64,000 nt of DNA from the human T2T-CHM13v2.0 reference genome, Homo sapiens. Below, one piece after another: positions 7,936 to 52,676 of the stretch. The stretch lies in the NCBI RefSeq assembly GCF_009914755.1, contig NC_060929.1; one strand, given 5' to 3'. The notes below the pieces were generated by a model. That model searched no databases. It was not told the origin of the DNA and worked only from the letters and a program-made list of their open reading frames with translations. Made by a program: the position numbers and the translations under genes. How positions within the stretch are numbered: the stretch's first letter is position 1; each line of letters opens with the position of its first letter.

Positions 7936-8167
7936 TGCCTTGAGTACTTTTTCTCATCTACAAATTTGTATACAAAATAAACCATCTAACCATCTACACC
8001 ATATTAGCTCCACATTTTGTGTAGGCATGACAAAATCTGAATGTCTGTTTTTTAGCAGACTTGGATAGGAGCCCGTCTTATTTGCAACTGAATCATATTT
8101 ATGTTTGATTATTGCTAACTAGGTGGAAATACTTCAGGGATTTATCCTGAAAGATATAATGTATTTT

Positions 8168-8218
8168 TGTGTATGTGTGTGTGTCTATGTGTGTGTGTGT
8201 GTATGTGTGTGTGTGTGT
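8168..8218. repeat. (TG)n microsatellite, interrupted
   Basis: tgtgtatgtgtgtgtgtctatgtgtg... seen directly. Confidence 0.95.
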
Positions 8219-10224
8219 TTTTTTTCTGGTTTTGATGGCTCGGTAAAGTTATCTACTCTCCTAGCCTGACTTCCTCACAAAGAATGAGCAATATGGATAT
8301 TATTTAAAGACCTGTCTTTATGTCTGAAAATCTATTCTATTCATTCTTTTAGGTTAAGGTTATTAAAAGGACACTACTCTGAAGGATAGAGCATTTTTAG
8401 TCACTTGCCTCTGTGTGTAAATTTTAAATCCTTTCCTTAGTGCATGTATGATGAGTTAGAAAAAGTAATTAGTCATCTTCATAGTTCCTTGAGATTCTAT
8501 AAAAGGGAAGGGTTTGGATATAACCAAGAAATTAAATCAGAGAGAGAGGGTGAGGGGATTGGTAATAACAGCAATAAAATTGGACAGTGTCTGGTATATA
8601 AAAGTCTGAATGAAAAATGAGTGACTCATTGATTGAATTTTATAAAAATTATATCCATTCTCTAATTCCTAATTTAACAAGTGGGCTACAAGACTGTTTT
8701 TGAAAATAACTTTTTTAGATGTTTTAATGTTAATACAGACTATGTATAATTCAAGTTTTTTTTCTCTTTCATTACTAGCTCTATAAAAATCAATATATTG
8801 TTTAGGGTCAAATTTGTATGATTTTTTAAAAAAAAATCTCTCTTCTTAAAAAAGAAGGCTCACATTCTCAAGTTCTGGTGATTGGCTCCAAATTCTCAAC
8901 CTATGGCAAGCTTAATCTTAAACTGTCTTCTGTCTACCACGAGTTAAGACAATTAGCAACCATTTAGAGTAATGAAATTAGACAGTACTCAGGATAAATG
9001 GATGTCTTTGGTTTGCATGACAAGCTGTGACTTAGTGATGAGCGTGAAAGTTTATGTGCCAGACAGAGGGGATTGTCACCTTGATTTTTTTTTTTTTCTT
9101 TTTTGAAGTCTGTCCCAGGCCAGTTCAACTGTTAAATTTCAATTAAACTAAATTTGGTCAGGGAAAAAAAAAAGAAAGATTGGAAATGTAAGTATATTTC
9201 TTTTATCTAGCCTGAGCTGTTGGCAAAGCAAACTGGCTTTTCCATACTTGGCATTTATTAATAATATTTTGAATACCATTGCGCTTTTTAAGCTGAGTGT
9301 GGTGGAATTCTCTTGTGGGATTATTAAATGAGTCGATTTGCATTCTAATGAGAACAAATGTTTGGGATTGCATTGTTAAAATGCTAAAACGGTGTGTGTA
9401 TAATTATTTTGCAGCTTAGATTCGCAGAACTCATTTCCCCAAACTCCTTTTTTTAAATAACTAAAGAGTCAGAGCCTACTGACGGCTGGAGGGGAGGTGA
9501 TTAGGGTAATTTAAACTGTTCACAAATGACTTTGCCACGGAATGAAAGCATTTCTTTGGCTTTGCTCAGCTCCTTTCATTATCTTTAAGCGGCCGCAGTG
9601 TTGAGTCCCATAAGAAGTCCCACCAAGCTCTCTTTCCTTGTACAGTTTCTCATTTGTATTGATTAATCATTTTGTAATTCCATTCTAGGTTGACTTGCTC
9701 ATCTTTAAGGCATTTGCTGCTTTTTCTTTGCTTGTCTATCTTGTAACCGTTATGTTGTCGGTTCTAATACCTTAGCTTTATCACTGCAAGTCAAGCTTTA
9801 AAACATTAATCCTTTCATGCTTTAATTTCATATTCTATTACCAGAATGAATGCAAATACTTTCTTTTTCTCCTTTTTAATCATCTTTACTACAGCTTTTG
9901 CATATGGGCCAATAGTAAACTAAGCTTTTATTATTTACAGTATAACTTTGTTTTTTAAAACAGTTTTTCAACTCTTCTCTTCATAAATTCTGTTGACAAA
10001 ATGCAAATGTTTACTGAAAAAATCTGTAGTCTTAGACTTAATTTGTTGTTGCTAATTTTTAATAAAATACATATATATTGTAAGTGGAGATGATTATGGC
10101 ACTAGTGGTAACAGTAGAAATGTTTCATTATTATAATTTCAAGTATTTGGATTGTTGGCCTTGGCCTGAAGAGTTGATTGTGATGGCAAAGTTTTGGAAA
10201 GATGATTATTTTAGATTTCTTGCA

Positions 10225-16060: not shown

Positions 16061-16903
16061 ATGATTTTTAGGGGAATGGGAGGGATCAAATTGGATCTGG
16101 AAAATTTTAGATAGACCATGCTATGGAGAAAGTATTGGCATCAATTATCTTTATGGTAATATTTTCTAACATAGAGATTACATGATTTTGTGTTTTTTCA
16201 TTTGACTAATATTTGAGTGCACTAAAATTTTAAAAGCAAGACATTATAAACAGTTACTATGAACAGATACCATGACCATTTGCCCCCACATTTCGGCTAG
16301 GGAAGGAGTTCCTTTTAATCATGCAAATGAATACTAGAAAATAAGCATCTCATTCACAGTGTCAGGAGTTTTTAACCTTAAACTAATACAGTTCCCACAT
16401 CATTGTATGACTGTTTTGGAAAACATTAATTCTTCATTTGAAAAAATAATTGTATAAAGGTCAAGGCAAGGTTTTCATGCTTGACAAAGAATGTGTTTTG
16501 GTCAACTTTAACCCAATAGTTGGCCTCTGTTACCAAGAGTATTATTTATAAAACTTCAATGAGAAGTGGAACATATATTAGTCTTTGAATAGGTGGTAAA
16601 AATATCCACGGAGCAAATGTAGCATTTACTGTAAATGCAATCTTCAAAGGTAGAGTGTTAATCTATTTTATTATGAAAGATATCTTATAGTTCTCATAAT
16701 AAAGAAAAAATTCTAATTGTCAATCTCAACAAATCTTCTGTATACCCCCCAAAGAAGTTAAGGTCTGTTCAATAATAATTACTTTCCATGTCACATAAAA
16801 ACTTGAGATTTTGTAAAGCTGGCTATTCTCAGAGAAGCAGAATCCATTCAAAGAGATGTTCCAAGACACTCATCCAGTAGGAGAGAAAAATTCAGGATTG
16901 GAA

Positions 16904-16905
<2 letters not shown>

Positions 16906-16943
<38 letters not shown>
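16906..16943. repeat. (CA)n microsatellite
   Basis: Seen directly. Confidence 0.97.
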
Positions 16944-17454
16944 TCAGTTTAATTTTAAATTTCAGTTTAATTATCTTTCTTTAGTCTTTCTGGAAGAGCA
17001 ATAAAAACAATCATAGCCTTATCCTACAAGTTGTAGCCATCTCCTCTGTTTTTTAGTCCAAATGATTCAAATACATAATGAAAAGGCCATATTTTTCCCA
17101 CAAAGGGATTACTTGTTTCTATTAAATAAATCTTCTAATTTTTTTTCCAACCCCTCCCTGATGAGCGTCTATTATTACTACTTGCTCAAACTGGGATGCT
17201 TTTCTTCCAGTCCTCACTTTCAGTTGATAGGGCACCATAGTTTACCACCTACATTCCCTTTCCCATGGATGTGATAACCAGAGTGAAATGAACAGGAAAT
17301 CCTATCTTGGGCGTTTCCTTCCAGTTTCTCCGAGTGTGTTGTTGCAGTAGCTGTTATATTATCTACCTGCCATACCAACATAATTCTGGTTGGTTGGTCT
17401 TGCTTGTAATGTAGCAAGATTGCCATGCAAGCCAGGTTATTGTTCAGTTGCTGA

Positions 17455-24129: not shown

Positions 24130-26230
24130 AAATTAAAGACCAATTTTTTTAAAAATAAGAAACTACCAAGTCTCACTCAAGAAGAAAAAAGAGAAAAATA
24201 TCTACAGGTCCAGATGAATTCACTGGCAAATTATCTCACACATTTAAAGAAGGAGTAAGAGCATTCTATCTAAACAGTTCCAAAAAAAATTTAAAGAACA
24301 AAGTATGATCCCCAAATCACTCTGTAAGGCCTGAATATACCCTGATACCAAATCTAATCAAGAGCATAACAGGAAAACTATCGAGGTATCTTTATGAACA
24401 TAGATGTAAAAATTCAAATACATTTTTATCAAATTCTGACAGAAATACGAAGAATAATACATTATGATCAAGTGTTGCCAAGAATGTGAAGTTGGTTTAA
24501 CATTGAAAAATCAATGTAATTTTAACTAAAAAAAAAAAAAAAAATTCTATATGACCTAAGCTAAAATAAAAATCGTAAAAAAGTAAGTAATTTCCTGGAA
24601 AATAAGTAGCAAGCCAAGAATGTCTGTTTTCACTTCTTATATTAGCATTTCTTTATTTAGTCTATCCTATTAAATAGGGCACTAAAAGACACCCAGACTA
24701 GAAAGGAAGAATCAATTGTCTTTTACTGAAGATGACTTGGTCATCTATGCCAGTAAATTCTACAGAATATAAGAAGAAGAACTACCTATCACAAGTTTGG
24801 TAAAATTGTAGAAAATAAGATAGTGATACATAAATCAATGAAATGTATATGTACTGGACACAAACAATTGGAAAATAAAATTTAAAATAGCATTTAAAAT
24901 AGAATCAAATATATCAAATAGGGATGAATTGAAAAAAACAGATGGGTAAAACCTGTACATTAAAAACTCAAAAATGAAAAGTTAAAAAATTAAAAGTGAG
25001 ATGCTCCATAATGCATTGGAAGACTCAGTTATTAGGATATCAACCACCTCCACATTCATCTATAGATTCACTTCTAGTCAAGATCACAGTAGTTGTTGCT
25101 GTGTTTTTTAGAAATTGACAAGATAATTCTAAAATTTTCAGGGAAACACAAAGGACATACCCAGAAGGAATCTGAAGAGAGAGAAAAAAAGTCTTATTAT
25201 AAACCTATAGTAACCAAGATAGTGTGTTATTGGCATAAAGGTAGACAAATGTTTGCAACAGAATAAAGAGAGCAAAAACAAAACTCACACATATATGATC
25301 AACTGAATTTCAGCAGAAGTGTCAAAGCAATTTAAGGGGAAAGAATAATCTTTTCAGTAAATGATGCTGAAACAATTTGCTTTCTATATGTAAAAACAAA
25401 AAGGAAGAACAAAAATACACAATAACCTCAAAGCTTGTCTCATATACCATATGCAGATTTAACTCCAAATGGCTCAAAGATGTAAGCATAAAACCCCAAA
25501 TTAATATAGACCTAAATGTACAACAAAAACAAAAAATATAAAGCACCTATGTAACAAGAAATAAAAAATGATCAGGAAAATGACAAATGATGAAATGTGA
25601 ATTGTCCATATACTACAAACAGATTTTTGATAATATGAAGTTTTAATAGTTTAAGGTAAAATGTAGTACTATCAGTAAACTAATGAGCAAAGGCATCGTT
25701 CTGGACAAAATAAATTATGAATGGCTAATAAGCCAGTGAAAACAAGTTCATTCTCTTTTTTGGCAATATCTCACCTCTAGGTATCTATTTGTAAGAATAA
25801 GCAGGTATGTGCGTAACGAATCATGTGAAAAGTTAGATAAAAACTAGATATCTAGGCCAGGCACGGTGGCTCACGCTTGTAAACCCAGCACTTTGGGAGG
25901 CAGAGGTAGGCGGATCACGAGGTCAGGAGATGGAGACCATCTTGGCTAACAGAGTGAAACCCCATCTCTACTGAAAATACAAAAATATTAGCCAGGCGTG
26001 GTGGCGGGCACCTGTATTTCCAGCTACTGGGGAGGCTGAGGCAGGAGAATGGCGTGAACCCATGAGCTTGCCGTGAGCGGAGATCGTGCCACTGCACTCC
26101 AGCCTGGGCGACAGAGCGAGACTCCGTCTCAAAAGAAACAACCAAAAAAAAAATACTAAACATCTAAACTTATGAAATTAGTTAAATTGTGTAGCATCTA
26201 TGCAATGGAATACGATAATAAAATAGCAAA
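24130..26230 (+). mobile_element. Degraded ancient L1M, ORF2/3' region with internal deletions, split by an Alu
   Basis: caggtccagatgaattcactgg; ccctgataccaaa; aaattgacaagataattctaaaatt; gatcaactgaatttcagcagaagtgtcaaagcaatt. Confidence 0.8.
25855..26151 (+). mobile_element. Alu (AluY-like) with TSD
   Basis: gatcacgaggtcaggagatggagaccatcttggctaac and gagaatggcgtgaaccc; TSD aaaactagatatcta / aatactaaacatcta. Confidence 0.95.
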
Positions 26231-26324
26231 AATATATCCAAAGAGACAGGAAATGCTGGTAACTATATTTAGGTTTTTAAAAATATAGGACTCTGTTTTG
26301 GTATTGTTACCAAACGTAGCTTTA

Positions 26325-26627
26325 CTTTTTTTTCTTTTTTCCTTTTCTTTTTTGAGATGGAGTCTCTCTCTTTCACCCAGGCTTGAGTGCAGTGGTACAA
26401 TCTCAGCAACCTCCGCCTCCTGGGTTCAAGCAATTCTCCTGTGTCAGTCTCCTGAGTAGGTAGCACTACAGGCGCCCGCCACTGCGCCCAGTTAATTTTT
26501 TATTTTTAGTAGAGATGGGGTTGCACCATATTGGTCAGGCTGGTCTCAAACTCCTGACTTCAGGTGATCCACCTCCCTCAGCCTCCCAAAGTGCTGGGAT
26601 TACAGGCATGAGCCACCGCGCCCAGCC
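26325..26627 (-). mobile_element. Alu (AluS) with TSD
   Basis: Reverse Alu; TSD acgtagcttta (26314-26324) / atgtagcttta (26628-26638). Confidence 0.96.
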
Positions 26628-28173
26628 ATGTAGCTTTAAATATACATTAAAGATAGGCCATAAGCTTGCATAGCAAAATGGTAATGGTAGTTTTCCCATA
26701 CTACTGTGATAAAGGAAATTTTCACTTTCTTCTATTTTTCTGTATTTTTCATGCATTTCTACACTGGCCTTGGGTTACTTTTTAAATAATAATTGAGATA
26801 AAAGTGAACTTGAGAAGCAGAAACAAAAAAGACTTTAGAGGTTAACAAGTGCCAGGTTATGATAATTCTTTCATTATTTAAGCAATGGAGAACAATTGGA
26901 AGTACCAAACAAGAGAATTATTTTTTTCATAACTCATTGTCTAATGCTAATGTGACCTGTGTGCACATATACGTGATTTCCTTCAAGGTGATAATGTGGT
27001 CTTTGAGTGTTGGGAATTTCTCACACATCTTTCTACACACAGAACCATATACGTAGTCAATGGTAAATACATTAGACAATCCTTGTGTATGAAATCAAAA
27101 ACTCTGTAGAAAATTAGCATTTATCTAGATTTTGCAAGTACTTCCCAGTCCAATATTTGAAACAATATGTAATTGACTTGCCATAAGAGTAAACTTGAAA
27201 GAATATTATAAAACTAATGAAGCTAAAAATTCCTGATTATATTACATTGAAATGGTTATAATAAACATTCTAGTTAGTCAGGAATCTTTACTTCTATTGG
27301 CCATTCATAATGGATATATGATCATGAAGCATGTAACAAGAAACATGTGTAATACTGGTGTTAATAGAGTGGAAAGTTCAATGAGAAAACAAAATAAAAC
27401 CTAAAAGTGCATGAGACCAAACTAAACAAAAAAGGTGCACCAGATGACATCTAAGAAAATTATGAAATTTTCCATGACACTGAGTGACAAGCTTTGGGAT
27501 GCATAAAAAGAATGGGAGAAAAAGAAGACAGATATACAATAACTAGGAAAAATAAGACTCTCTGAATTGACAAGGGAATATAATTTTTTCAAATGACCGT
27601 TTGTCTTAAGGGAACCAAATATTTTAGTCATGGGCTACCAACTAAGCATGCAGTGTTCTTATGATTTATCTCATCACATCATCTGCATTCGGTTTAACAC
27701 GTGCAATCTCAGCAAATAAACTCTTTTTCAGCATTCCTGTGTGGTCAGGTGACTTAAGTTAAATGTCAGGGGAGATAGCAAGAAGCTACAGCTTAGCATA
27801 TTCATCAGTGTCTAATGAGGGTCTTAAGATGAGACAGAACTGAAGTTAATTCACCAAATTTGTTTGTATTATAGACGTAAAAGGTGGCAAATATGAACTT
27901 AGGAAAGGTGACTCATAAAAATTTTAAGTGATTTACCCATAAAATAAAAACTAAATAATTATGTATACCTATGTATTCTTACTCTGTCAGTTTTACCCAA
28001 ATTATGTAAATTGGAAATAAGTGCCCTTACTGTGAGGATATCACATGGTATTTCACAATATTGTTTATGGATAGCATTCTCTACTCTTCTATAACTCTTA
28101 TGTCTGTTCTTTAATTCAGCAAATATTTATTATGCCCTGATGTCACTCTCAGAATTTTATTAGGTTCTGTGAG

Positions 28174-28396
28174 AAATGAAAACAGCGGAAAATACAAGAT
28201 CTGTCTCAAGTCAGGTTTCTTAGAAGCCAAGCCTGACTGTAATTGACTGAGCTAGTGCTCCTTAGGAAAACCCTGTAAGCAGAGGAATAAAGCTGGATGT
28301 GATAGTGAAGGGATTCAAGAATTCAGCAATGATGTGGTCTCAGGAAGTGTAGCTTCACCCTGACCCATAGGTGAGAGTTCTAAAGCATGAATTGCA
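28174..28396 (+). repeat. Left arm (donor) of a 223-bp inverted duplication
   Basis: Reverse complement of 30210-30432 with 7 mismatches (hand alignment). Confidence 0.97.
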
Positions 28397-28610
28397 GTTC
28401 AGAGTTGCCCTGGAGTCAAAGAGGCTGACTATTTATGCCCTACATCAATCATTAGCTATGAGACATCCTTTTCTTGGCTTAGTTTCCTGGGTGAGTTGGC
28501 TCCACACAGCCTAGAAATACTCTCCAGAGGAGGAGACAGCTAGGCTCCATGAGCAGCTCGCAGACAGTGCAGAGCTGATAGAGCAAATAGACACTTCAGT
28601 ATGGACCACA
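28202..28610 (-). mobile_element. LTR16-class ERVL solo LTR
   Basis: tgtctcaagtcaggtttcttagaagc..agcctga; gatgtggtctcag; agcatgaattgca..cagagttg; TG...CA termini. Confidence 0.7.
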
Positions 28611-28849
28611 GCCTTGCCTTTTCTTTTTCTTTCCCCTGCCCTTCTACTTCTCAGTCTCCACTTTCCTCCATTTTTAAACCATGTCATCATTTGCAAATTT
28701 CTCACCACTCTTTACTGTTGCTTGGTGAGATCCACTGGTACTTTAAGGCCTTCTTCACCTCCACTGGTGACACTTTCACTTATGAGACTGCTGGTTAAAA
28801 TCAGTGTAATACAACTAGTTGACCTCCCTGGTCAGAATCCTCCAATAAT

Positions 28850-29355
28850 TTCCCAAATTCTTCAGCATGATCTACAAGACTCTAAAGATCTGGTCCTCCA
28901 ATACTTTTCTGACACTCTTTCCTGTCACCCAGCACTACCCCTAATATAACGATTCGACTCCAGTTGCATTAGCCTCTTTGCTGATTCTCAAACATACTAA
29001 GCATGCAGATCATTGCAAATGCTGGTTACTCTCCCTAAACTTTCTCTTTCCATTCTTGTCATGGTTTGTTCATGTCTTCCTTTAAGTCTGTGATCGGATG
29101 CTGTTTCATCTGTCAGGCTTTTCTGACTACATGATATAAAATAGCTTCCCTCTTAAAACACATTCATCACCACCTAAAATATTATATATTGTTGGATGGT
29201 TTGATTGATTGGTTGACTGTCTAATCCAGCTAAAATATACACAGACCCATAAGAAGAAGGACACTGTTTATCTGTTTGCCACTGGTTTTTCTACACCTAG
29301 AGCAATGTCAAGACTATACTAGCAACTCAGTGATTATTTGGTGAATTAATGAATA
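28850..29355 (+). mobile_element. L2a LINE 3' part
   Basis: cccaaattcttcagcatgatctacaagactct...acacctagagcaatgtc...ctcagtgattatttggtgaattaatgaat. Confidence 0.8.
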
Positions 29356-29619
29356 GGTGCCAGAAAGACCAGAATAAAAAGCAAAAATACTCTACAATTG
29401 TCAGAGAAAGCCATGCTGGAGTGACTTCTGTGCTGAGACTTTACAGGTGAATTGAAGATTTACAGGTAAGAAGGTAGACAAGAACTTTCCAGGCAGCGAA
29501 ATGAGCCAGTGCCTCTAAAGCAAGGAAGCGCAGTGTCTCTGCAGTTCTTTGCCTATGCTCTGCACTTTAAAGGGCCCATCAATAACCACAACAGTTTTCT
29601 GCAAGAGGAGACCTCTCAG

Positions 29620-30510
29620 ATCTGTATTCTGCTTTCCATTACAAGGCAGCTAGCTTGATATTTCCATTTACATGTTCTGTTGTCATCTTAAAACTACACT
29701 TTTTGAATTTATTCATGTGGCTAAGGTATGACAGTGATGAGAGACTGCTCATTATCACTCACCTTCTTATCCCATCAGTTAATAATTTTATTAATCTTTT
29801 CCTTATAATATCCTTTACTCTCCCATAACTGTTGCCACATCCGTATCCTAATTTTTCATGCTATGTTTGCCTATTGACTGGTTTTTCTGACTCTAAACTC
29901 TCTCATTTCATTTCATCCTGCACCATTTTGCCAGGTGCACAACTCTAACTTAGACTTTCACATCTCACTCAACAGACTCGTGAGATTATCTACAATGGTT
30001 AGTTTCAAAGTTATAGACTCACAGTCAAGGCCATCCAGGACTTGACACCAACCACCTCCCCACTTTTTCCTATTTCTGTTTCTTTCCGTGAAGTTCCAAC
30101 TTTGCTCACATTAGTTCCACATGCACTCATCTACAGTTGCACTTTTGCTCATGGTTTCCCACCATCCTGGAAACCCATCTCATTCCTATGCATTTAACTG
30201 TGCTTTTCATGCAGTTCATGCTTTAGAATTCTCACCTATGGGTCAGGCCGAAGCTACACTTCCTGAGACCACATCATTGCTGAATTCTTGAATCCCTTCA
30301 CTATCACATCCAGCTTTATTCCTCTGCTTACAGGGTTTTCCTAAGGAGCACTAGCTCAGTCAATTACAGTCAGGCTTGGCTTCTAAGAAACCTGACTTGA
30401 GACAGATCTTGTATTTTCTGGTGTTTTTATTTAACCTATGCATTTAACCCATCGTTTAAAACCTAGCTCAGATTTTCTCTCTACATGCAACTTCCCTGAC
30501 CAGTCTATTT
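29620..30510 (+). mobile_element. L2 fragment interrupted by the inverted duplication
   Basis: attcatcctgcaccattttgccag; caaggccatccaggacttg; resumes after 30435 with cccatcgtttaaaacctagctcag...cttccctgacc. Confidence 0.65.
30210..30432 (-). repeat. Right arm (derived copy) of the inverted duplication, flanked by a 14-bp direct repeat
   Basis: cctatgcatttaac at 30185-30198 and 30435-30448; perfect match of 30250-30418 to the reverse complement of 28188-28356. Confidence 0.97.
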
Positions 30511-30534
30511 AAAAATAACTTCCAAATATTTAAA

Positions 30535-30673
30535 AAATAAATTTTATTGTATATATTTAAGGCATACGACATGATCATAAAAGTATCTTCTCTCCAATGT
30601 TCGTTTCAGCATTATTCACAATAGCCAACATATAGAAACAAGCTAAGTGTCCATCAACAAACAAATGGATAAA
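30535..30673. mobile_element. Short L1MA-type insertion with an inverted segment
   Basis: Minus-strand 3' terminus (ttattgtatatatttaaggcatacgacatgat) abuts a plus-strand L1 piece (gcattattcacaatagccaa...aagtgtccatcaac..atggataaa). Confidence 0.7.
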
Positions 30674-32413
30674 TATTTAGAACTTCTAAAACTTCAGTCT
30701 CTATCATCCATTTGGAAAGTGGTCGTTTATTTCCATGTAATATATTCCGTGTCTTTTACATTGAAATATTATTTAAATGTATTATTTTCATTTAACTTTT
30801 TACCTTTTAATTTTTTTATTTTTGTAAGTTGATTTTAAGTTCTCTTGGGGGCAGGGATAAAATCATGGTGTAGGAACCTACTGCCTCCTCTTTTCCTGCC
30901 CCAAGTCACCTTGTAAAGAAGGTTACTTACTGTCAAAGTAACCTCCCTAATAGGTTCTAACATCCACAGCAACCCAAGATCATCCATAAGATTAAACTTC
31001 CATAAATATTTATACATCATTCTCTCTGCCTAGAAGTTTATTTTATTTTACTTTTTACCTAAAAATTCCCCATTTAAGCGTTAAGATTCACTCAGCCACA
31101 AAGTCACTACAATTTAGACTTAGCTTACCTTACTTCGCAGCTTTTGTTTCTACTTCCTTTTTATCATCCCATTATGAGGTTCCTTCTATTTTAGCTCTGG
31201 TTTTATATACAGTAGGAGATTGTGATTTGTGGGAGTTAAGAACATAGCCTTCTAGGTCAGATCTGGATTTGAACTTGACTCTGTCCTTCTGTTGCCTCTA
31301 TTAGATTCACAGCTGCCATAGCCAACAGTATCAGGCTTTGCATGACCATAGAACAACTAGATGCGATCATATTTTGTGCTTACATCAACTACTACAAATA
31401 GCTTTGTGAGTGAATAAACCAAGAATATATTGTTTTTGTTAATCTTACAGACCCTCCACAGTAAAGTAAGTAGATCCATTGGCTTTTTTCTTCTTTTGTC
31501 ACAAGTTTAAAGAATTAAACTTTGAGAAGAAAATGGATGGAGAGGGTGTTGCAGATTGGGATAGCTATGCTAATTAATTCCTCAGGGAAAACACTCTCAC
31601 TTTTACGTAATTTTATTCTGATTGATTTTCATAGCTGTTCTCTTGTTATGATGCTTGCTTATCTGACAGACTGTATGGTCCTTCTCTTTTGCCTTTTGAG
31701 AGCTCTGGATGATATCTTGTTCCATTACAAAAATTTTTTAGGCCAAAAAGCATAAAAATACATACTCATATTTAATGTTAGAAGAAGCAAACCTGGAATA
31801 TTGTTACTCACCTGGAAGTTATCTTGCAAATAAACATTTATTTTCTTAGGCTATACCAACAGAGATCACGTTATTGCATTTTATTTTATGTCATATGATC
31901 TCTTTATTTTTCAAGAAATATCTCTGTTATCCTAGGTAATACTCATTTCTTCCAAGCTGTAAAAATATTTAACAATGTAGCAAATACTACCTACCAAATA
32001 AGGAACTACTTCTTTGAGCAAAGTTAGTTTCAGACACTTTATTATTTTTGTCAACTGAAATGCTTCTACTTCTAATAACAAAACCCCTGACTTAAAATGA
32101 GTTAAACTATAAAGAAAGTGTACTATCTGGTATAACAAGAAGTCGTGAATTATGATGGGTGTCTGAGTTCGTTGATTTATGGGTTCAACAATATGATCAA
32201 CTCTCTGTATCCTTTTAATTTCTGTACTTCTGTCATAAATATTTGCTTGGATGCAACATTTCCAGACATCAAATGTAGAGAAAACAAATAGATCATTTCT
32301 TCCTTTCTCTGTCTCCTAAGAAATAGAAAAATGTACAGAGGCCACTGAGCAAACTCACCTCTTCCCCACCATGCTTCATTGAGGAAATTTCAGACCCATA
32401 CACGTTTGGGGAC

Positions 32414-32597
32414 TGATAGTGTTTGGCTGTATCTCCACCCAAATCTCATCTTGAATTGTAGTACCCATCATCCCCACATGGCGGGGAAGGGACCTGGTCA
32501 GAATCAGAGGTAATTGAATCACGCGGTCTGTTATCCCCATGCTGTTCTCATGATAGTGAGCGAGTTCTCAGGAGACCCGATGGTTTTATCAGGGGCT
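32414..32597 (+). mobile_element. THE1 (D-like) LTR, 5' half only
   Basis: tgatagtgtttggctgtatctccacccaaatctcatcttgaattgtag...catgctgttctcatgatagtgag..gagttctc. Confidence 0.85.
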
Positions 32598-32611
32598 GAG
32601 ACAGGGACATC

Positions 32612-32789
32612 CAAGAGCTGACTTCATGGTGATGCTATCTATGCAATAGCACAGGGTCCTGGACTTAGAAGAACACCATTCTTAGTTTAATGCTCTGCTA
32701 GCATCATCTTGAAATTCTGAATAATTATTAATAAGAAGCCTGCATTTTTATTTTGTACTGGACCTCACAAAGTTTTGTGGTTGAGTCTA
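32612..32789 (+). mobile_element. MER91A-like hAT MITE
   Basis: cttcatgg...gcacagggtcc..cttagaag...tttaatgctctgct...tcttgaaattct...gcatttttattttgtactgg. Confidence 0.7.
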
Positions 32790-33225
32790 CATATTCCCAT
32801 GAGATAATTAGCTTTATGGGGCAGGGATGCATATCTAAATAGAATATATAGGTGTACTAAAAAGGAAGATGAGAAGATAGGATTCTGGGTAGCCTACCCA
32901 TAGATTTTACTCCATTCATCATTTTTTAAGTTTAGAACTGGTTTGACTCCACTCTAAATCACCAAGAGCAACAACAGTAGTGAAGTAACTAGTTCAGTAA
33001 ATACTGGTCAATCAATTCCTCAGATTAAAGAAGGCACTGAGCATGAACTGGAAATCCGTAGTATAGTGGGGGATTTCCAAGCAAAGTGATTAAAAGTGAA
33101 AGCATTCCTTCCTACATTATTGCTCTTGATAGTACTGAAAAATCATACATTTGACCTCTCAAACTAATTTTCTTCCACTAATACCTCTCTCCCAAACTTA
33201 ATATACGACCCTCCCCTTCATGTAC

Positions 33226-33302
33226 ATAGACACACACGCAGACCCACACACCGAGACACACCCAGACACACACACATATACACATACACACACACACACA
33301 CA
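33226..33302. repeat. Degenerate (CA)n repeat
   Basis: Seen directly. Confidence 0.9.
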
Positions 33303-33334
33303 GAGTTCATTATTATTGATATAAGAGAAAAGCA

Positions 33335-33760: not shown

Positions 33761-34466
33761 CCAAGAGAGCTTAAGCCTGCGGGATCAAGGATGGCAATCA
33801 AATATCAGCTTCATAAAGCTTTTTCAAAATCTGGCTCAAATCATGATAACCACTAAAGAGTAATATGCAAAGAGTGAATCTGGGTCATATCACTAACTGG
33901 AGATTTTGCTGTGTACAGGATATGAGTTAGATTAAGCTTCGTAATTATGTTCAATTGGTTTGTCTATTATTTCACCAAAAATACAACTTTTGAGCTCACG
34001 TATTTTGTAAATTGGATCTATATGATTTTTTGTTTTAATTTAAGCAGGAAAGCCACAAAAATATTAGGACATCCTGATCCAGTGCCAGATCTATCTGCAT
34101 TATTTTAGTTGAATATTTTATAATGTACTTTGAGGATTCTTTTTAAACTATACACTGTAACTTGGCTACTCGTTGAGTGATTTTCAGTCATTTCATTGTT
34201 TTCTCAAAGCTTCTTACTTTGCTCATCAAACTCCAATATTGAAATTCTTCTGAATCTGATGGGCTTGAGATGCTTTCTAATGAAGTATGGGGGACAGGTT
34301 TTTATACTCTCTTGGCTTGTTGTCCCTCATTAGAGACAACTTTGAATTTATATTTTCATTAGGCCTCTTTCCAAGTGTTAACAATATGGTTGGGGATCTG
34401 ACTGCTAATTAAAGAACTGGAGTTAAAATAGAACTGCAGTTTTAAAGGTGCACTCTCTATATGTTT

Positions 34467-34497
34467 GTGTGTGTGTGTGTGTATGTGTGTGTGTATG
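34467..34497. repeat. (TG)n microsatellite
   Basis: Seen directly. Confidence 0.9.
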
Positions 34498-34595
34498 TCT
34501 GCACATCTATATGGCTACTCGTACACAGATTCACACATACACAAACACACAATTAGTGCCTACATTGTTTTTTACAACTCAGTGATTGTGCTGAA

Positions 34596-34960
34596 TCCAT
34601 TCATTTATGCATTCAATATTTATTGAGTACCTACTATGCTCCAGGAACTCATCTCGACATTAGGGATACAGCAGCAAACCAAAAGGATAAGGTAATTCTG
34701 TCACGTAACTTATATTGTAGTAATGGAGAGAGACAAGCACCAGTAAAAACATAAATATGTTCACATAATAATAAGCACTATGAAGATAATACATTTGGTT
34801 AATGTGATAGTTATGTGGCAGATAGTGATTGAGATGAGGAAGAGTTGCTATTTGATTTAGGTGATCAGGAAAGATTCATAAAAAACGTAATATTTGAGCC
34901 TGACCAAAATGATTATATGAAACAAACAATTTGAATATTTTAGACAAAAATAATCTAACT
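34596..34960 (-). mobile_element. L2a 3' end
   Basis: cattcatttatgcattcaatatttattgagtacctactatgctccagg...gggatacagcagcaaac. Confidence 0.85.
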
Positions 34961-36689: not shown

Positions 36690-37060
36690 TCCCACACACG
36701 CTTTCCGAAAGTCTCCTGTCACAATTTACACTTGCAGATCTCAGTGCTCAAAATCTTCTTTCTTCAGCTATTCATGTATTTTACTCCTTCATTTTTTTTG
36801 GGTCTCTGCTCAAATGGTACCTCCTTCCAGAGGTCTTCCTTCACTGCACCATTCAAAATAGCAACCCCTGACACTCTCTATCACTTAACCTGATATCTCT
36901 TTCTTCATAGGTATTAATCATTACTTGACGCTACATACTATCTATTCGTTCTATTAATATTTCCTCCACCATCCACAAGGAACTTGAAGACAGAGAATTG
37001 TTTTGTTTCATTTTGTGTCCCCAACATTGTAGCAGCTTAATAAATATTTGTTGGAAGGAA
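36690..37060 (+). mobile_element. L2 3' end
   Basis: ggtctctgctcaaatggtacctccttccagagg...gcttaataaatatttgttggaaggaa. Confidence 0.75.
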
Positions 37061-38289
37061 GAATGTATTAAAAATTACTAAAATAAGAAATAAATGAGTG
37101 TCAGTATTAAGTACAGTACCTGGCACAATGAAAGCATTTAATAAAGATTACTTCATTTATTTTATTATAAAACTAATGATAATTATGATTTTCAAAAGTG
37201 ATCAGAGAAATATAGTGGAGGGAAAAGAAAAAATGCTGAATTTTCCTGAAGGGACCTAAAAAGCTGAGGTAGAGTCAATAATCTAGATAATTTTGTTAAA
37301 AATATAAAAAATATTAGCCTGAAAGGCAAAAAAAATGAAGTAGAACCTTTAAAAAATATATCAATAATTATCAGCTACATTGAAATTTACATGGTAAACT
37401 CTATGCACAAAGTTAATACATATATTTTTCCGAAGAGTGCAGTAAAGATGGCTTTTAAAATTTGACATATATTTTAGCACTAGTTAAAAATATATACTAT
37501 ATTTTGAAGTATGTGTATACCAAAGTCATATGGCTGGATGATATAAAAATAACATAAACTAGGGTATAAAATGATTTATATGTGTTTGTGATATATTTTC
37601 AACAGAGAGCAGAATTGTGCTGTATTCTGGAAGAACCGAATTAGTCAACTTGTAATAAACACAGAAACAGCTGACTTACTAAATTACTAGAAATAATGTT
37701 CCCATTTTGCAGTTTATGACAACTGCTCTGATTTTTTTACTTCATGCATCACTTTTTAAAGATTTTTTGGCTAAACACTGTGCCACTTGACTGCCCGGCA
37801 TTATTTTCCATAATAGAGGAGTCAATACAAAACTAGTAAATTTCATGAATCATAGAAATATTATTTTCTGTTTCCTCAATTCAGAAATATAGATGCATTA
37901 TCTAGAAAAAGATGACAAGTCAGTCTCTAATAACACTCTACATTGTGCGAAACAATTATATAATCCACTTCTAGGCTCTTGGGGATGCAGTGGTAGGCAG
38001 TGACAATAAAGTCCTTTCTGTCATTTTGTGCACACTGTAGTAGCCATGAATGAATGGTGCCTGGTGTACCTCCTCCTTCCACGGGAAGTGGGGAAGTCTC
38101 CAGTTGCCAGGTTTCTGCTACATTATCCTTAATTCTTAAGTGATGCTTTTGAAGGTGGATTCCAAGAGTCCTTCACTGTAATTACATATAATATGTATTA
38201 AAATATATAATATATATTTTATATTTTATAAAGTATAACTACAAGTGTATATTTAATAATTTTAATATATAAAATGTATAATTTTTAAT

Positions 38290-38666
38290 ATAATTTAAGT
38301 TCTAGGGTACATGTGCACAACGTGCAGGTTTGTTACATATGTATACATGTGCCATGTTGGTGTGCTGCACCCGTTAACTCATCATTTACATTAGGTATAT
38401 CTCCTAATGCTATCCCTCCCCCTTCCCCCCACCCCACAACAGGCCCCAGTGTGTGATGTTCCCCATCCTGTGTCCAAGTGTTCTCATCCTTCAGTTCCCA
38501 CCTATGAGTGAGAACATGTGGTGTTTTGTTTTCTGTCCTTGTGATAATTTGCCCAGAATGATGGTTTCCAGCTTCGTCCATGTCCCTACAAAGGACACGA
38601 ACTCATCCTTTTTTATGGCTGCATAGTATTCCATGGTGTATATGTGCCACGTTTTCTTAATCCAGT
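38290..38666 (-). mobile_element. 5'-truncated L1PA5-like 3' end
   Basis: ttaagttctagggtacatgtgcacaacgtgcagg...tccctacaaaggac..actcatcctttt; ORF 38333..38581 derives from it. Confidence 0.95.
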
Positions 38667-40479: not shown

Positions 40480-40630
40480 AGCCATTGTAGTCAAATTATC
40501 TGCTTTTTCTCTGTAGTCTTCATTAGACTGTGGGCAGCTGGAGGGCAATGACCAAGTTCATTCATCTTTAAATTCTCAATGGCTAGCAGGCTACCTGCCA
40601 CATTGTAGATGCTCAGTAAATTTTGGTTAA
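40480..40630 (+). mobile_element. L2 3' end fragment
   Basis: cattagactgtgggcagctggagggca...acctgccacattgtagatgctcagtaaa. Confidence 0.75.
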
Positions 40631-40979
40631 ACTGGACAGAATTGCATCATTACTATTGTAACATTCTGGATAACTCCATTATAATGTACAATATACTGTA
40701 TTATCTGTTTTCTTTGTATTTTTCAAGACAAAATTCCCCCATTTTATTCATTTGTGTTCTTTCTCTCATAGTACATATTAAAATATTGTTGCATGCATGA
40801 ATTAAATAAGTAGACAAATTAGTGAATATTAATATGGTAAAATAAAGTCAAAATGATTATTGAGGTTTAAGAAATGGGGAATTGAAAATGATTGGGGGTT
40901 GGCTGAAGATATATATCTTGCTGGAAAATATTCAGTTAGTGATGCAATGGGAAGTCCAAATGGACAGAAAATCTAGCCC

Positions 40980-44481: not shown

Positions 44482-44533
<52 letters not shown>

Positions 44534-44690
44534 CTGCCCTCCTTTATGTGAGGATTCAGTAAGAAGGCCTGCATCTGATGCTGGAGTTTTGATCTTGCAC
44601 TTTACACACTCCAGAATAGTAAGAAATAAATTTCTGTTTTTTATAAATTACCTAGTCTCAGGCATTCTGTTATAGCACTAAAATAACGTG
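44275..44690 (+). mobile_element. MSTD-like MaLR solo LTR with an internal (CT)n(CA)n repeat
   Basis: ccaaaatccatgtgttagaaacttaatcctcaatgtaacagtgttg...aaataaatttctgttttttataaattacctagtctcaggcattctgttatagca. Confidence 0.88.
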
Positions 44691-48032: not shown

Positions 48033-48233
48033 ATCTGGAGGACGTAGCAGATTCAGGTTCAATTTTTGGCAATAGTTTTTCACACATGATCCTGTGTTCT
48101 TTCACCAGGTACGATATAAAGTTTTGCCTTTGTGATGTTAGCAGCTACCGATGATCAATGTCTAGTTGCATCATTCATTAAGAGTTGCAAAATCATCATA
48201 ATCTAATTCTATAGCTCATGACCTGGAATTCTT

Positions 48234-48430
48234 ATATATGTATGTGTGTGTGTGTGTGTGTGTACACAGACACACATATATACATGTATATATATATATG
48301 TGTGTGTGTGTATATATATACATATATATGTGTGTATATATACACATATATATGCGTGTGTATATACACGTATATGTGTATACGTATATATATACACATA
48401 CGTGCGCATATATATATATATATATATATA
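48234..48430. repeat. Compound (TG)/(TA)/(CA) microsatellite
   Basis: About 200 bp of near-continuous purine-pyrimidine alternation; it explains the Y/I/V/C-rich ORFs. Confidence 0.97.
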
Positions 48431-49086
48431 AAACTTCTCCATATTTATTCTACTACCAGTGGTACAGTTTAAATAGCACAGGCAGAATAAATACATGATT
48501 TTCCGCCTTTATTTGGTAGTTTTCAAAATAATAGATTGGTCATGAGGATACTCCAACTAAAAATGTTTGATGTGATTCAATCTGTTAAAATTTGTATCCA
48601 TATTGATGCTCCAGTTTCTGCTTTGACATGTGGAAGTTTCTTCAAGTTGGTTCCTGTCAGGTTTTGCATGTGTATGTTGATTTTTTTTTTTTGGCATGAC
48701 TAGTAGTTTTGGGTAGCTTCTTTTATTATTATTATTTTTCCATAAGTTGTGGGGTACAGGTGGTATTTGGCTACATGAGTAAGTTGTTTAGTGGTGATTT
48801 GTGAGATTTTGGTGAACCCACCACCCGAACAGTATACACTGCACCCTATTTGCAGTCTTTTATCTCTCGGCCCCCCTCCCACTATTTCCCCCAGGTCCCC
48901 CAAGTCCACTGTATCATTCTTATGCCTTTGCATTCTCATAGCTGAGCACCCACATATCACTGAGAACATACCATGTTTAGTTTTCTATTCCTCAGTTACT
49001 TCACTTTGAATAATTGTCTCCAGTCTCATACAGGTCGCTGCAAATGCTGTTAATTCATTCCTTTTTATGGCTCAGTAGTATTCCAT

Positions 49087-49258
49087 CATATATATGTATA
49101 TATATGTATATATATGTATATATATGTATATATGTGTGTATATATGTATATATAGTATATACATGTATATGTGTATATATTATATATGTGTATATATGTA
49201 TATATTATATATGTGTATATATGTATATATACGTATATGTATATATACATACATATGT
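49087..49258. repeat. (TA)/(TATG)n microsatellite inside the L1PB 3' region
   Basis: Seen directly. Confidence 0.95.
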
Positions 49259-52001
49259 CTATTTTTTTGGCAGTTTCTTTATCCACTCACTGATTGATGG
49301 GCATTTGGGTTGGTTCCATGATTTTGCAATTGTGAATTGTGCTGCTATAAACATATGTGTGCAAGCATCTTTTTAGTATAATGATTTCTTTTCCTCTGGG
49401 TAGATACCCAGTAGTGGGATTGCTGAATAAAATGGTAGTTCTACTTTTAGTTCTTTAAGGAATTCCACACTGTTTTCCATAGTGACTGTACTAGTTTACA
49501 TTCCCACCAGCAGTGTAGAAGTGTTCCCTAATCACTGCATCCATGTCAACATCTACTGTTTTTTGATTTTTTTGATTATGGCCATTCTTGCAGGAGTAAG
49601 GTGGTATCACATTGTGGTTTTGATTTGCATTTCCCTGATCATTAATGACGTTGAGCATTTTATCATATGTTTGTTGGCCATTTATATATCTTCTTTTGAG
49701 AATTTGTCTGTTCATGTCCTTAGCCCACTTTTTAGTGGGATCGTTTGTTTTTTTCTTACTGATTTGTTTGAATTCATTGTAGATTCTGATATTAGTCTTT
49801 TGTCAGATGTATAGATTGTGAAGATTTTCTCCCACTCTGTGGGTTGTTTACTGACTGTTCCTTTTGCCGTGCAAAAGCTTTTTAGTTTAATTAAGTCCCA
49901 GCTATTTATCTTTGTTTTTATTGCATTTGCTTTTGGGCTCTTGGTCATGAAATCCTTGCCTAAGCCAATGTCTAGAAAGGTTTTTCCGATGTTACCTTCT
50001 AGAATTTTTGTAGTTTCAGGTCTTAGATTTAAGTGCTTAATTCATCTTGAGTTTATTTTTGTATAAAGTGAGAAGTGAGGATTCAGTTTCATACTCCTAC
50101 ATGTGGCTTGCCAACTATCCCAGCACCATTTGTTGAAAAGGGTGTGCTTTCCCCACTTTATGTTTTTGTTTGCTTTGTTGAAGATCAGTTGGCTGTAAGT
50201 GTTTGGGTTTATTTCTGCATTCTCTATTCTGTTCCATTGGTTTATGTGCCTATTTTTACACCAGTATCATGCTGTTTTGCTGACTGTGGCCTTATAGTAT
50301 CTTCTGAAATCAGGTAATGTGATGCCCCCAGATTTGTTTTTTTTGCTTAGTCTTGCTTTGGCTGTGGGGGCTCTTTTTTGGTTCCATATGAATTTTAGAA
50401 TTTTTTTTTTCTAATTCTATGAAGAATGTTGGTGGTATTTTGATGGGGATTGCATTGAATTTGTAGATTGGTTTTGGCAGTTTGGTCATTTTCACAATAT
50501 TGATTCTACCCATCCATGAGCTTGAGATATGTTTCCCCTTGTTTGTGTCGTCTGTGATTTCTTTCAGCAGTGTTTTGTAGTTTTCCTTGTAGAGGTCTTT
50601 TGATGCCTTGGCTAGGTATATTCCTAAGTATTTTATTTGATTTTATTGCAGCTATTCTAAAAGTGGTTGAGTTCTTGATGTGTTTCTCTGCTTGGTTGCT
50701 GTTGGTGTATAGAAGAGCTACTGATTTGTGTACATTAATCTTGTATCCGGAAATTTGCTGAATTATTTTATCAATTCTAGGAGATTTCTGAAGGAGTTTT
50801 TAGGGTTTTCAAGGTAAACAATCATATCATCAGCAAACAGTGACAGTTTGACTTCCTCTTTACTGATTTGGATGCCCTTTATTTCTTTCTCTTTGTCTGA
50901 TTGCTCTAGCTAGGACTTCAGTACTATGTTGAAGAGGAGTGGGGAGCGTGGGCATCCTTGTCTTGTTCCAGTTCTCAAAGGGAATGCTTCCAACTTTTTC
51001 CCCATTTAGTATTATGATAGCTTTGGGTTTGTCATAGATGGCTTTTATTACATTGAGGCATGTCCCTTGTATGCCAGTTTTGCTGAGAGTTTTAATCATA
51101 AAGGGATGCTGGATTTTGTCAAATGCTTTTTCTGCATCTATTGAAGTGATCATGTGATTTTTGTTTTTAATTCTGTTTATGTGGTGTATCACATTTATTG
51201 ACTTGTGTATGATAAACCAGACATGCATCCCTGGTATGAAACTCACTTGATTATGGTGCATTATCTTTGGTTTGTTGTTGGATTAGGTTAGCTAGTATTT
51301 TGTTAAGGATTTTAGCATCTATGTTCATCAAGGATATGGGTCTGCAGTTTTCTTTTTTGGTTATGACCTTTCTTGGTTTTGGTATTAGGGTGATGCGGGC
51401 TGCATAGAATGAATTAGGGAGGGTTCCTTCTTTCTCTATCTTGTGGAATGGTGAGAAAGGGATTGGTAATTCTTCTTTGAATGTCTGGTAGAATTCTGCT
51501 GTGAATCTGTCTGTTCTTGGACTTTTTTTATTGGTAATTTTTAAATTACCATTTCAATCTCACTGCTTGTTATTGGTCTGTTCAGGGTAACTTATTCGTC
51601 CTGATTTAAGCTAGGAGGGTTGCATTTTTCCAGGAATTTATCCGTCTTTTCTAGGTTTTCTAGTTTATGTGCATAAAGGTGTTCATAGTAGCCTTGAATG
51701 ATCTTTTGTATTTCAGTGGTGTCAGTTGTAATACCTCCTGTTTCATTTTTTAATGAGGTTATTTGGATTTTCCCTCTTTCTTCTTGGTTAATCTTGCTAA
51801 TGATCTATCAATTTTATTTGTCTTTTCAAAGAACCAGCTTTTTGTTTCATTTATTTTTTGTATTTTTTTTGTTTCAATTTCATTTAGCTCTGCTCTGATC
51901 TTGGTTATTTCCTTTCTTCTGCTGCATTTGGGTTCAGTTTGTTCTTGTTTCTCTAGTTCCTTGAGGTGTGACATTAGAATGTCAGTTGTGCTCTTTTAGT
52001 C

Positions 52002-52676
<675 letters not shown>

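What the first reader, a model, noticed from the sequence alone, without database searches (positions are those of the whole stretch)
28174..30448. Local 223-bp inverted duplication inserted into an L2 with a 14-bp direct repeat
Seen: 30210-30432 is the reverse complement of 28174-28396 (216/223 identical by hand alignment), with a 1813-bp spacer. The duplicated unit spans the end of an ancient LTR16-class LTR plus ~28 bp of non-LTR flank, so it is not an independent TE insertion, and ~97% identity is far too high for two copies of such an old family. The right copy interrupts an L2, is bracketed by cctatgcatttaac (30185-98 / 30435-48), has an 11-nt filler (tgtgcttttca) and has no poly-A. Inference: a templated insertion at a staggered break by short-range template switching (FoSTeS/MMBIR or polymerase-theta-type repair). 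Repeat masking would hide it.
Basis: partly seen in the sequence, partly recalled or inferred. Interest (0 to 1): 0.8.

Follow-up and report, generated by a model that had tools for sequence, protein, structure and literature searches.

The report
Local inverted copy-and-paste insertion
A 223-base stretch of unique human DNA was copied backwards into a site 1.8 kb away, duplicating 14 bases of the target; it is a clean example of a known kind of copying error and has no evident function.

Summary
Window 30210-30432 is the reverse complement of 28174-28396 (216 of 223). It is flanked by an exact 14-nt direct repeat (30185-98 / 30435-48), with an 11-nt filler on the left and AA on the right. The assembly holds only these two copies, so this is not a dispersed element. 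The right copy is the derived one: it alone has the direct repeat and the filler.

My best reading (0.62) is a DNA-templated, copy-and-paste template switch. Synthesis left the host strand at 30198, copied 28396 back to 28174 in reverse, and re-entered 14 nt upstream of its departure point. That re-entry re-replicated the 14-mer. Published models already describe this pattern, so a staggered break is not required.

All seven mismatches lie in the outer 54 nt of the unit, and the central 169 nt are identical (P about 3e-4). This fits error-prone synthesis near the junctions, or later gene conversion.

An L1-mediated (RNA) origin fails three of four hallmarks.
- The right flank belongs to a dispersed family that I recall as L2.
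- The left flank could not be shown to belong to it.
- LTR16 could not be tested.

No primate orthologues were available, so the age is open. This is a new member of a known kind, of modest interest.

The parts
28174..28396 (+). Donor (original) copy of the 223-nt unit
   Evidence: This is arm 1 of the inverted repeat. Its flanks share no direct repeat beyond a chance-level 6-mer. It has no filler.
28397..30184 (.). Sequence between the donor and the target site. It holds a + strand copy of the dispersed family that I recall as L2, at 28820-29371.
   Evidence: Profile of 29 genomic copies: E 1.7e-31 over the whole window and E 1.1e-32 over 5 kb.
30185..30198 (+). Left copy of the 14-nt direct repeat CCTATGCATTTAAC. 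This is host sequence up to the departure point (point 1).
   Evidence: D7, 100% identical. None of 5000 random placements reached 14 nt.
30199..30209 (+). 11-nt filler TGTGCTTTTCA of undetermined template
   Evidence: The best local matches are a 10-mer at 26746 and several 7-mers, all within chance expectation.
30210..30432 (-). Derived, inverted copy of 28174-28396. It is 216 of 223 identical, with mismatches at 30214, 30229, 30248, 30249, 30419, 30421 and 30428.
30433..30434 (+). Two bases AA between the copy and the right direct repeat. They are either untemplated, or templated if synthesis skipped 7 nt of the donor: the donor read in reverse continues CATTT-CTCACAG-AACCTA.
   Evidence: sequence read directly.
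30435..30448 (+). Right copy of the 14-nt direct repeat. This is host sequence re-replicated after re-entry at point 4.
30455..30516 (+). Right flank belonging to a dispersed repeat family that I recall as the L2 3' region
   Evidence: A motif taken from 30492-30514 has 40 exact genomic matches against 0 for the reversed control. Profile hits: E 1.1e-5, E 1.4e-4 over the whole window and E 5e-7.
30574..30673 (+). Fragment of a very abundant repeat next to the target. I recall it as the L1 ORF2 3' region. It is not part of the event.
   Evidence: 989 first-look candidates, 40 scored at 80-90% identity. A profile of 12 copies gives E 1.5e-27.

Best explanation
This is a single copy-and-paste template-switch event on DNA, in an ancestor of this genome.

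A 3' end being extended along the + strand stopped after 30198. It acquired 11 nt of filler, then primed on the + strand (or its sister) at 28396. It copied backwards to 28174, which gives a reverse-complement copy. It then returned to the original template 14 nt upstream of where it had left (at the position of 30185) and carried on. Re-copying those 14 nt produced the direct repeat.

In the four-point notation the order along the sequence is 3 (28174), 2 (28396), 4 (30185), 1 (30198).

The same product arises in either of two settings. The 3' end may have been a nascent strand at a stalled fork (FoSTeS/MMBIR type). It may instead have been the resected 3' tail of a break folding back on its own single strand (snap-back synthesis).

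Shown: the structure, the copy number, the direction of copying, and the clustering of mismatches.

Inferred: the order of the steps, that the template was DNA, and that the junction-proximal mismatches were made by a low-fidelity polymerase during the event.

No present function is evident. The pair could form a 223-bp duplex in a transcript.
For: - The inverted copy is 216 of 223 identical with no indels.
- The donor is retained, and the 3.1-Gb assembly holds only these two copies (2 of 2 candidates). A 26-mer from the unit, allowed up to 3 mismatches, finds only the two.
- The 14-nt direct repeat is far beyond chance (0 of 5000 random placements) and occurs only at the right copy.
- There is an 11-nt filler at one junction and 2 nt at the other.
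- All 7 mismatches fall at unit positions 5-14 and 184-219, with a 169-nt identical core. The probability of such a core is 2.5e-4 for 7 random mismatches and 1.25e-3 if the tandem pair counts as one event.
[quoted passage not shown] 'Cycles' of templated insertions re-replicate a host segment (PMC7025897). MMBIR junctions carry microhomology, templated insertions and raised point-mutation frequency (PMC4352052).
- The donor lies only 1.8 kb from the target. That is natural for a local template switch, but not for an RNA taken at random.
Against: - There is no clean microhomology at either junction. The AAC that ends the 14-mer matches the donor bases next to point 2, but the filler separates them. 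The CCTA at the other junction matches the donor only after a 7-nt skip (read post hoc).
- 223 nt copied from 1.8 kb away is beyond the reach of the published short-range scan, which looks for a template within 100 nt. From recall, it is also longer than typical polymerase-theta insertions.
- A 14-nt duplication is also what LINE-1 ORF2p staggered nicks give, at 12-18 bp.
- Each copy keeps one CpG where the other has CpA. This looks like ordinary decay after the event, so some or all of the mismatches may not be synthesis errors.
- No empty site in another genome could be examined.
Confidence: 0.62

Rival explanations
1. LINE-1 ORF2p initiated the event. Its endonuclease made nicks 14 nt apart, and the gap was then filled in one of two ways. 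Either a local non-polyadenylated RNA, such as an intronic transcript of the surrounding lncRNA gene, was reverse-transcribed. Or repair synthesis copied nearby DNA.
For: The 14-nt duplication falls within the 12-18-bp range reported for ORF2p insertions, which leave 3' overhangs (PMC11702581, passages). That paper's abstract also lists templated insertions among the changes at L1 insertion sites. Class 1 templated-sequence insertions have target-site duplications (PMC5110952). A TTT/AA sequence lies 3 nt inside the 3' edge of the 14-mer. By the hub's annotation, both copies lie in an intron of a predicted minus-strand lncRNA.
Against: There is no poly-A or poly-T at either end. The nick sites implied by the 14-mer read TAAC/CC and TAGG/AA, not TTTT/A (read directly). 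No AATAAA lies within 30 nt of either possible RNA 3' end; the only one in the unit, at 28286-28291, is about 105 nt from the end. An RNA donor gives no reason for a source only 1.8 kb away. The lncRNA is a predicted model and no paper in the library names it (0 papers).
Confidence: 0.17
2. A staggered double-strand break was repaired by capture of a free DNA fragment (an end-joining 'patch', the class 2 templated-sequence-insertion type). The 5' overhangs were filled in, which gave the 14-nt duplication.
For: Filler nucleotides occur at both junctions. Class 2 events show non-templated additions and microhomology (PMC5110952).
Against: By definition, class 2 events lack target-site duplications, and their donors are distant. 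Here there is a 14-nt duplication and the donor is 1.8 kb away. A free fragment would still have to be copied from the donor, which remains intact.
Confidence: 0.1
3. The inverted repeat is older than the identical core suggests. Gene conversion between the arms later homogenised the central 169 nt and left only the ends diverged. This changes the dating and the reading of the mismatches, not the origin.
For: The core is identical while the ends are diverged. There is reciprocal CpG-to-CpA loss, one in each copy. This points to real elapsed time in both lineages.
Against: Two of the mismatch groups are tight clusters (positions 12 and 14; positions 184 and 185). This is more typical of error-prone synthesis than of independent neutral changes. 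No direct test was possible.
Confidence: 0.25
4. It is an assembly artefact of the T2T assembly.
For: None from any call.
Against: The second copy differs from the first at 7 positions, carries its own filler and has an exact 14-nt duplication of unique host sequence. A collapse or mis-join would not produce this.
Confidence: 0.01

Closest known systems
[quoted passage not shown]
   Same: A reverse-complement copy of nearby sequence is inserted. Return upstream of the departure point creates a direct repeat. The event looks like one large insertion in a linear alignment. It produces a new inverted repeat.
   Different: That scan only looks for templates within about 100 nt. Here the template is 1.8-2.0 kb away and 223 nt long, with an 11-nt filler at the first switch.
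'Cycles of templated insertions' in cancer genomes (PCAWG; Li et al. 2020, PMC7025897; passages read)
   Same: It is a copy-and-paste process. A template is copied and inserted, the string returns to the host chromosome, and a host segment is re-replicated.
   Different: Those events are somatic and were called from short-read structural variants, typically between distinct regions or chromosomes. Here the event is germline-fixed, uses a single template, is local and inverted, and re-replicates only 14 nt.
FoSTeS/MMBIR rearrangements at genomic-disorder loci (PMC4352052, passages read; Carvalho et al. 2013 and Hastings et al. 2009 seen only as references there)
   Same: Template switching, templated insertions and raised point-mutation frequency near the junctions.
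   Different: From recall, those events span kilobases to megabases and change gene dosage. Clear junction microhomology is expected there but is not clearly present here.
Templated sequence insertion polymorphisms, classes 1 and 2 (Onozawa and Aplan 2016, PMC5110952; parts 1-2 of 4 read)
   Same: A unique, non-repeat sequence is inserted and the donor is retained. It shares the target-site duplication with class 1, and the filler nucleotides with class 2.
   Different: Class 1 needs a poly-A tail, a poly-A signal and a TTTT/A site, all of which are absent here. Class 2 has no duplication. Both have distant donors, thought to act through RNA.
Synthesis-dependent microhomology-mediated end joining, snap-back synthesis (PMC2943611 and PMC5728401; search listing and start of abstracts only)
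   Same: A 3' end folds back on its own strand and primes synthesis, giving an inverted templated insert at a repaired break.
   Different: From recall, these inserts are typically a few to tens of nucleotides, templated within tens of nucleotides of the break. I did not check this in the papers.

Membership tests
Local template-switch / copy-and-paste templated insertion | The insert is a copy of nearby sequence (here reverse-complement) and the donor is left intact. | tested here: met
   216 of 223 identical and inverted, with the donor present 1813 nt away.
Local template-switch / copy-and-paste templated insertion | The copied unit is not a mobile element: there are no other copies with the same ends. 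| tested here: met
   The genome search finds 2 of 2 candidates, both at this locus. A 26-mer allowed up to 3 mismatches finds the same 2, with 0 for the control. This applies to this assembly only, and the search method is insensitive below roughly 80% identity.
Local template-switch / copy-and-paste templated insertion | The host segment is re-replicated on return (point 4 before point 1; a 'cycle'). | tested here: met
   An exact 14-nt direct repeat flanks the insert. None of 5000 random placements reached 14 nt.
Local template-switch / copy-and-paste templated insertion | Microhomology at the switch points. | tested here: inconclusive
   AAC (3 nt) is shared by the host end and the donor next to point 2, but it is separated from the copy by the 11-nt filler. 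CCTA (4 nt, or 6 with the AA) is shared at the return only if 7 donor nt were skipped.
Local template-switch / copy-and-paste templated insertion | An ancestral empty site (a single 14-mer with no insert) in an outgroup or in another allele. | not testable with these tools
   No primate or other human assemblies are held. The flanks are unique in this genome, so there is no paralogous empty site.
LINE-1 ORF2p-mediated insertion (TPRT; class 1 templated sequence insertion) | A target-site duplication of at least 5 bp, typically 12-18 bp. | tested here: met
   The duplication is 14 nt.
LINE-1 ORF2p-mediated insertion (TPRT; class 1 templated sequence insertion) | A poly-A tail at the 3' end of the insert. 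| tested here: not met
   The insert ends read ...TTTTTATTT-AA and TGTGCTTTTCA-TGCAG..., with no A-run or T-run.
LINE-1 ORF2p-mediated insertion (TPRT; class 1 templated sequence insertion) | Insertion at a 5'-TTTT/A-3' endonuclease site. | tested here: not met
   The implied nicks read TAAC/CC on the top strand and TAGG/AA on the bottom strand. A TTT/AA lies 3 nt inside the 14-mer (read directly).
LINE-1 ORF2p-mediated insertion (TPRT; class 1 templated sequence insertion) | A poly-A signal 10-30 nt upstream of the donor's 3' end. | tested here: not met
   No AATAAA lies within 30 nt of 28396 on the + strand or of 28174 on the - strand. The only one, at 28286-28291, is about 105 nt away (read directly).
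Class 2 templated sequence insertion (end-joining patch) | No target-site duplication, and a distant donor. | tested here: not met
   There is a 14-nt duplication and the donor is 1.8 kb away.
   The right flank 30455-30516 matches (E 1.1e-5; E 5e-7). The left flank gives no hit at E up to 100. The in-script empty-site join scores no better than shuffled left flanks: 273 of 300 shuffles and 17 of 20 control chunks reach it, and 198 of 200 shuffles reach it. The name L2 is recalled and comes from no library.
   No repeat library is held. Genome searches with 28140-28430, 28397-28900 and a 26-mer find only this locus. A single-sequence nhmmer search of the window and the stored loci finds nothing.

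The most novel reading that the evidence does not exclude
This is a germline example of an intermediate-scale template switch: hundreds of bases copied from about 2 kb away, with re-entry upstream of the departure point. That scale falls between two kinds of study. Short-range scans look for templates within 100 nt, and structural-variant studies work at kilobases and above. On this reading the junction-proximal mismatch clusters are a fossil record of the low-fidelity polymerase that made the copy, not of later decay. If so, such events may be a hidden class in primate genomes, and a datable and countable one.
Probability: 0.35. Interest if true: 0.45.

Novelty: new member of a known kind. 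Interest (0 to 1): 0.3.

Why it matters
On its own this is one neutral insertion in an intron of a predicted lncRNA, and I found no sign of function.

Its value is as a clean, fully resolved specimen. It has a unique donor, an intact target duplication, a filler, and a non-random pattern of differences. It shows that template-switch insertions occur in the germline at a scale that current short-range scans, limited to a template within 100 nt, would miss.

With ape orthologues it could be dated. The seven differences could then be polarised, which would show whether repair synthesis is mutagenic near its switch points in the human lineage.

It also creates a 223-bp near-perfect inverted repeat. 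The computed arm-to-arm RNA duplex energy is about -408 kcal/mol on the minus strand. In principle this could form double-stranded RNA in a transcript, or promote inversion of the 1.8-kb spacer. Both remain untested.

Tried and rejected
1. Paralogous empty site. Genome searches with the left flank found only this locus. The right-flank search found 40 scored matches out of 989 candidates, but all of them were to a 100-nt fragment at 30574-30673. A profile of 12 copies showed it to be a long, abundant element that I recall as L1 ORF2, so that model was dropped.

2. L2 test. A motif from 30492-30514 gave 40 genomic matches against 0 for the control. Profiles were built from the first 29 of the 39 foreign matches, the ones returned as loci. 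They detect other copies in the window and the right flank, but never the left flank. Pairwise alignment of the two presumed L2 pieces was not significant (z between -0.94 and 1.85). Single-sequence nhmmer and blastn within the window also found nothing.

3. Continuity of the donor context. I thought a minus-strand repeat 3' end at 28098-28204 ran through the donor's left boundary (E 0.01). Over the whole window the E-value is 0.13. With a cleaner model the hit shrinks to 28103-28137 at E 0.47. I rejected it as evidence.

4. LTR family. This could not be tested.

5. Origin of the filler. No convincing template was found. The best is a 10-mer at 26746, against about 0.24 expected by my own estimate.

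6. Rfam. No family reaches its gathering score in 26000-33000.

8. No paper in the library names the lncRNA. I did not search the literature for this specific locus by coordinate.

9. The first profile carries unrelated flanking repeats at both of its ends, which I read as Alu from recall, so its hits outside about positions 380-1000 were ignored.

Full report
**Observation.** Window 28174-28396 and 30210-30432 are reverse complements over 223 nt, separated by 1813 nt. An ungapped alignment gives 216 of 223 identical and does not extend further on either side. The right arm is bracketed by an exact 14-nt direct repeat, CCTATGCATTTAAC, at 30185-30198 and 30435-30448. Eleven bases (TGTGCTTTTCA, 30199-30209) lie between the left repeat and the copy. 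Two bases (AA, 30433-30434) lie between the copy and the right repeat. In 5000 random placements of the same geometry in this window, the longest word shared by the flanks never reached 14 nt; the maximum was 13. Across the whole window this is the longest and most identical inverted repeat. The other 24 pairs listed, out of 65 found, are 74-89% complementary; I read those with printed sequence as Alu from recall.

**Not a mobile element, and direction of copying.**
- A search of the window's own 3.1-Gb assembly with 28140-28430 found two candidates, both at this locus.
- A 26-mer from the centre of the unit, allowed up to three mismatches, again found only these two, with none for the reversed control.
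- The left flank of the insertion and the sequence right of the donor are unique in the genome at the sensitivity of that tool.
- The donor's own flanks share only a 6-mer. In the random placements, 1647 of 5000 reach 6 nt or more.

The right copy is therefore the insertion and the left copy is the source. The insert has no A-run or T-run at either end, and I saw no terminal inverted repeat on reading them.

**Pattern of differences.** The seven mismatches lie at unit positions 5, 12, 14, 184, 185, 204 and 219, and the central 169 nt are identical. With seven mismatches placed at random, a run of 169 or more occurs with probability 2.5e-4. With six events, counting the adjacent pair once, the probability is 1.25e-3. 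So '97% identity' is really a perfect core with ragged ends.

Two readings remain open. The first is error-prone synthesis close to the two switch points. Raised point-mutation frequency is listed among the signatures of MMBIR junctions (PMC4352052, passages), and two of the mismatch groups are tight clusters (12 and 14; 184 and 185). The second is ordinary divergence followed by gene conversion of the core. In favour of real elapsed time, each copy retains one CpG where the other has CpA.

The Jukes-Cantor distance is 0.032, and the 95% upper bound from 0 differences in 169 nt is about 0.018. Using substitution rates that I recall rather than compute, this puts the event anywhere from recent to roughly the age of the great-ape radiation. 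No primate sequence was available to decide.

**Mechanism.** The structure is what a single template switch with return gives:
1. Extension along the + strand stops after 30198.
2. Eleven bases are added.
3. Synthesis resumes on the + strand at 28396 and runs backwards to 28174.
4. The end returns to the host template at the position of 30185 and continues.

Because the return point lies 14 nt upstream of the departure point, those 14 nt are copied twice. [quoted passage not shown] A direct repeat is generated, the event looks like one large insertion, and the return requires the new duplex to open, as in break-induced replication. Their search space is 100 nt on each side, so an event with a template 1.8 kb away would not be found (PMC7954356, passages). 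The PCAWG study defines 'cycles' of templated insertions as strings that return to the host chromosome and re-replicate a host segment (PMC7025897, passages).

A resected 3' tail snapping back on its own strand gives the same product, and I cannot tell the two settings apart.

Junction microhomology is weak. The host end AAC equals the donor bases next to 28396, but the filler intervenes. At the other junction AA-CCTA matches the donor six-mer AACCTA only if seven donor bases (CTCACAG) were skipped. I found this post hoc and give it little weight. The filler has no convincing template.

**Rivals.**
- **LINE-1 ORF2p origin.** A 14-nt duplication is also typical of ORF2p, which gives 12-18 bp with 3' overhangs (PMC11702581, passages). 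Class 1 templated-sequence insertions are defined by a duplication, a poly-A tail, a poly-A signal and a TTTT/A site (PMC5110952). Here only the duplication is present. The implied nicks read TAAC/CC and TAGG/AA, there is no tail, and there is no AATAAA within 30 nt of either possible 3' end. I give this reading about 0.17.
- **End-joining patch (class 2).** This requires no duplication and a distant donor, and both conditions fail.
- **Assembly artefact.** A collapse or mis-join would not carry seven differences, its own filler and an exact host duplication.

No repeat library is held, so I built tests from the genome itself.
- A motif from the right flank (30492-30514) has 40 exact matches in the genome against 0 for its reversed control.
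- A profile was built from the 29 foreign copies returned as loci (of 39 foreign matches). It finds a long + strand copy at 28820-29371 (E 1.7e-31), further copies at 34595-34957, 36744-37073 and 40506-40631, and the right flank at 30455-30516. From recall, this family is the L2 3' region.
- The left flank gave no hit. An in-script join of the two flanks scored no better than joins with shuffled or unrelated left flanks.

So 'interrupts an L2' is shown for one side only.

The stretch at 30574-30673, which I first mistook for the L2 end, belongs to a different, very abundant element that I recall as L1 ORF2. A tentative minus-strand repeat end across the donor's left boundary did not survive a whole-window E-value or a cleaner model. 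The LTR16 label for the donor could not be tested.

**Context and function.** By the hub's annotation, both arms lie in an intron of a predicted minus-strand lncRNA. The paper library holds no mention of that gene. Rfam finds nothing in 26000-33000. The two arms would pair strongly in a transcript: the computed duplex energy is about -408 kcal/mol on the minus strand and -422 on the plus strand. Nothing shows that this is used.

**Verdict.** The kind of event is already described in print. This specimen is larger in reach than the published short-range events and much smaller than clinical or cancer rearrangements, and it is unusually clean. It is a new member of a known kind, of modest interest.

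Noticed in passing
window 30574-30673 (possibly from about 30504): A 100-nt fragment of a very abundant repeat lies about 125 nt right of the insertion. The search gave 989 first-look candidates, with 40 scored at 80-90% identity, and the paralogues share more than 700 nt with one another. From recall it is the 3' part of L1 ORF2. It appears to split the L2-like sequence.
   Followed up: partly
window 28820-29371 (+), 34595-34957 (-), 36744-37073 (+), 40506-40631 (+): Four further copies of the dispersed family defined by the motif at 30492-30514 (recalled as L2), with E from 1e-7 to 1.7e-31 against the 29-copy profile. One of them lies inside the spacer between the two arms.
   Followed up: partly
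window 29400-29519 (-) and 28103-28137 (-): Weak, non-significant matches to the same family profile (E 0.78 and E 0.47 over the whole window). These may be very decayed fragments or chance.
   Followed up: partly
window 48227-48434 and 49079-49277; also 8158-8233, 16894-16978, 33230-33332, 34450-34583, 44488-44560: Long compound TG/TA and CA microsatellite tracts.
   Followed up: no
window 38282-38587 versus 52022-52323: Direct repeats of about 300 nt at 91-92% identity, 13.7 kb apart (families D9, D15 and D16). I take them to be two copies of a younger interspersed repeat. They were not examined.
   Followed up: no
unit positions 12/14 and 184/185 (window 28185/28187 and 28357/28358): Two of the mismatch groups are multi-nucleotide clusters. 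Each removes or creates the only CpG of one copy.
   Followed up: partly
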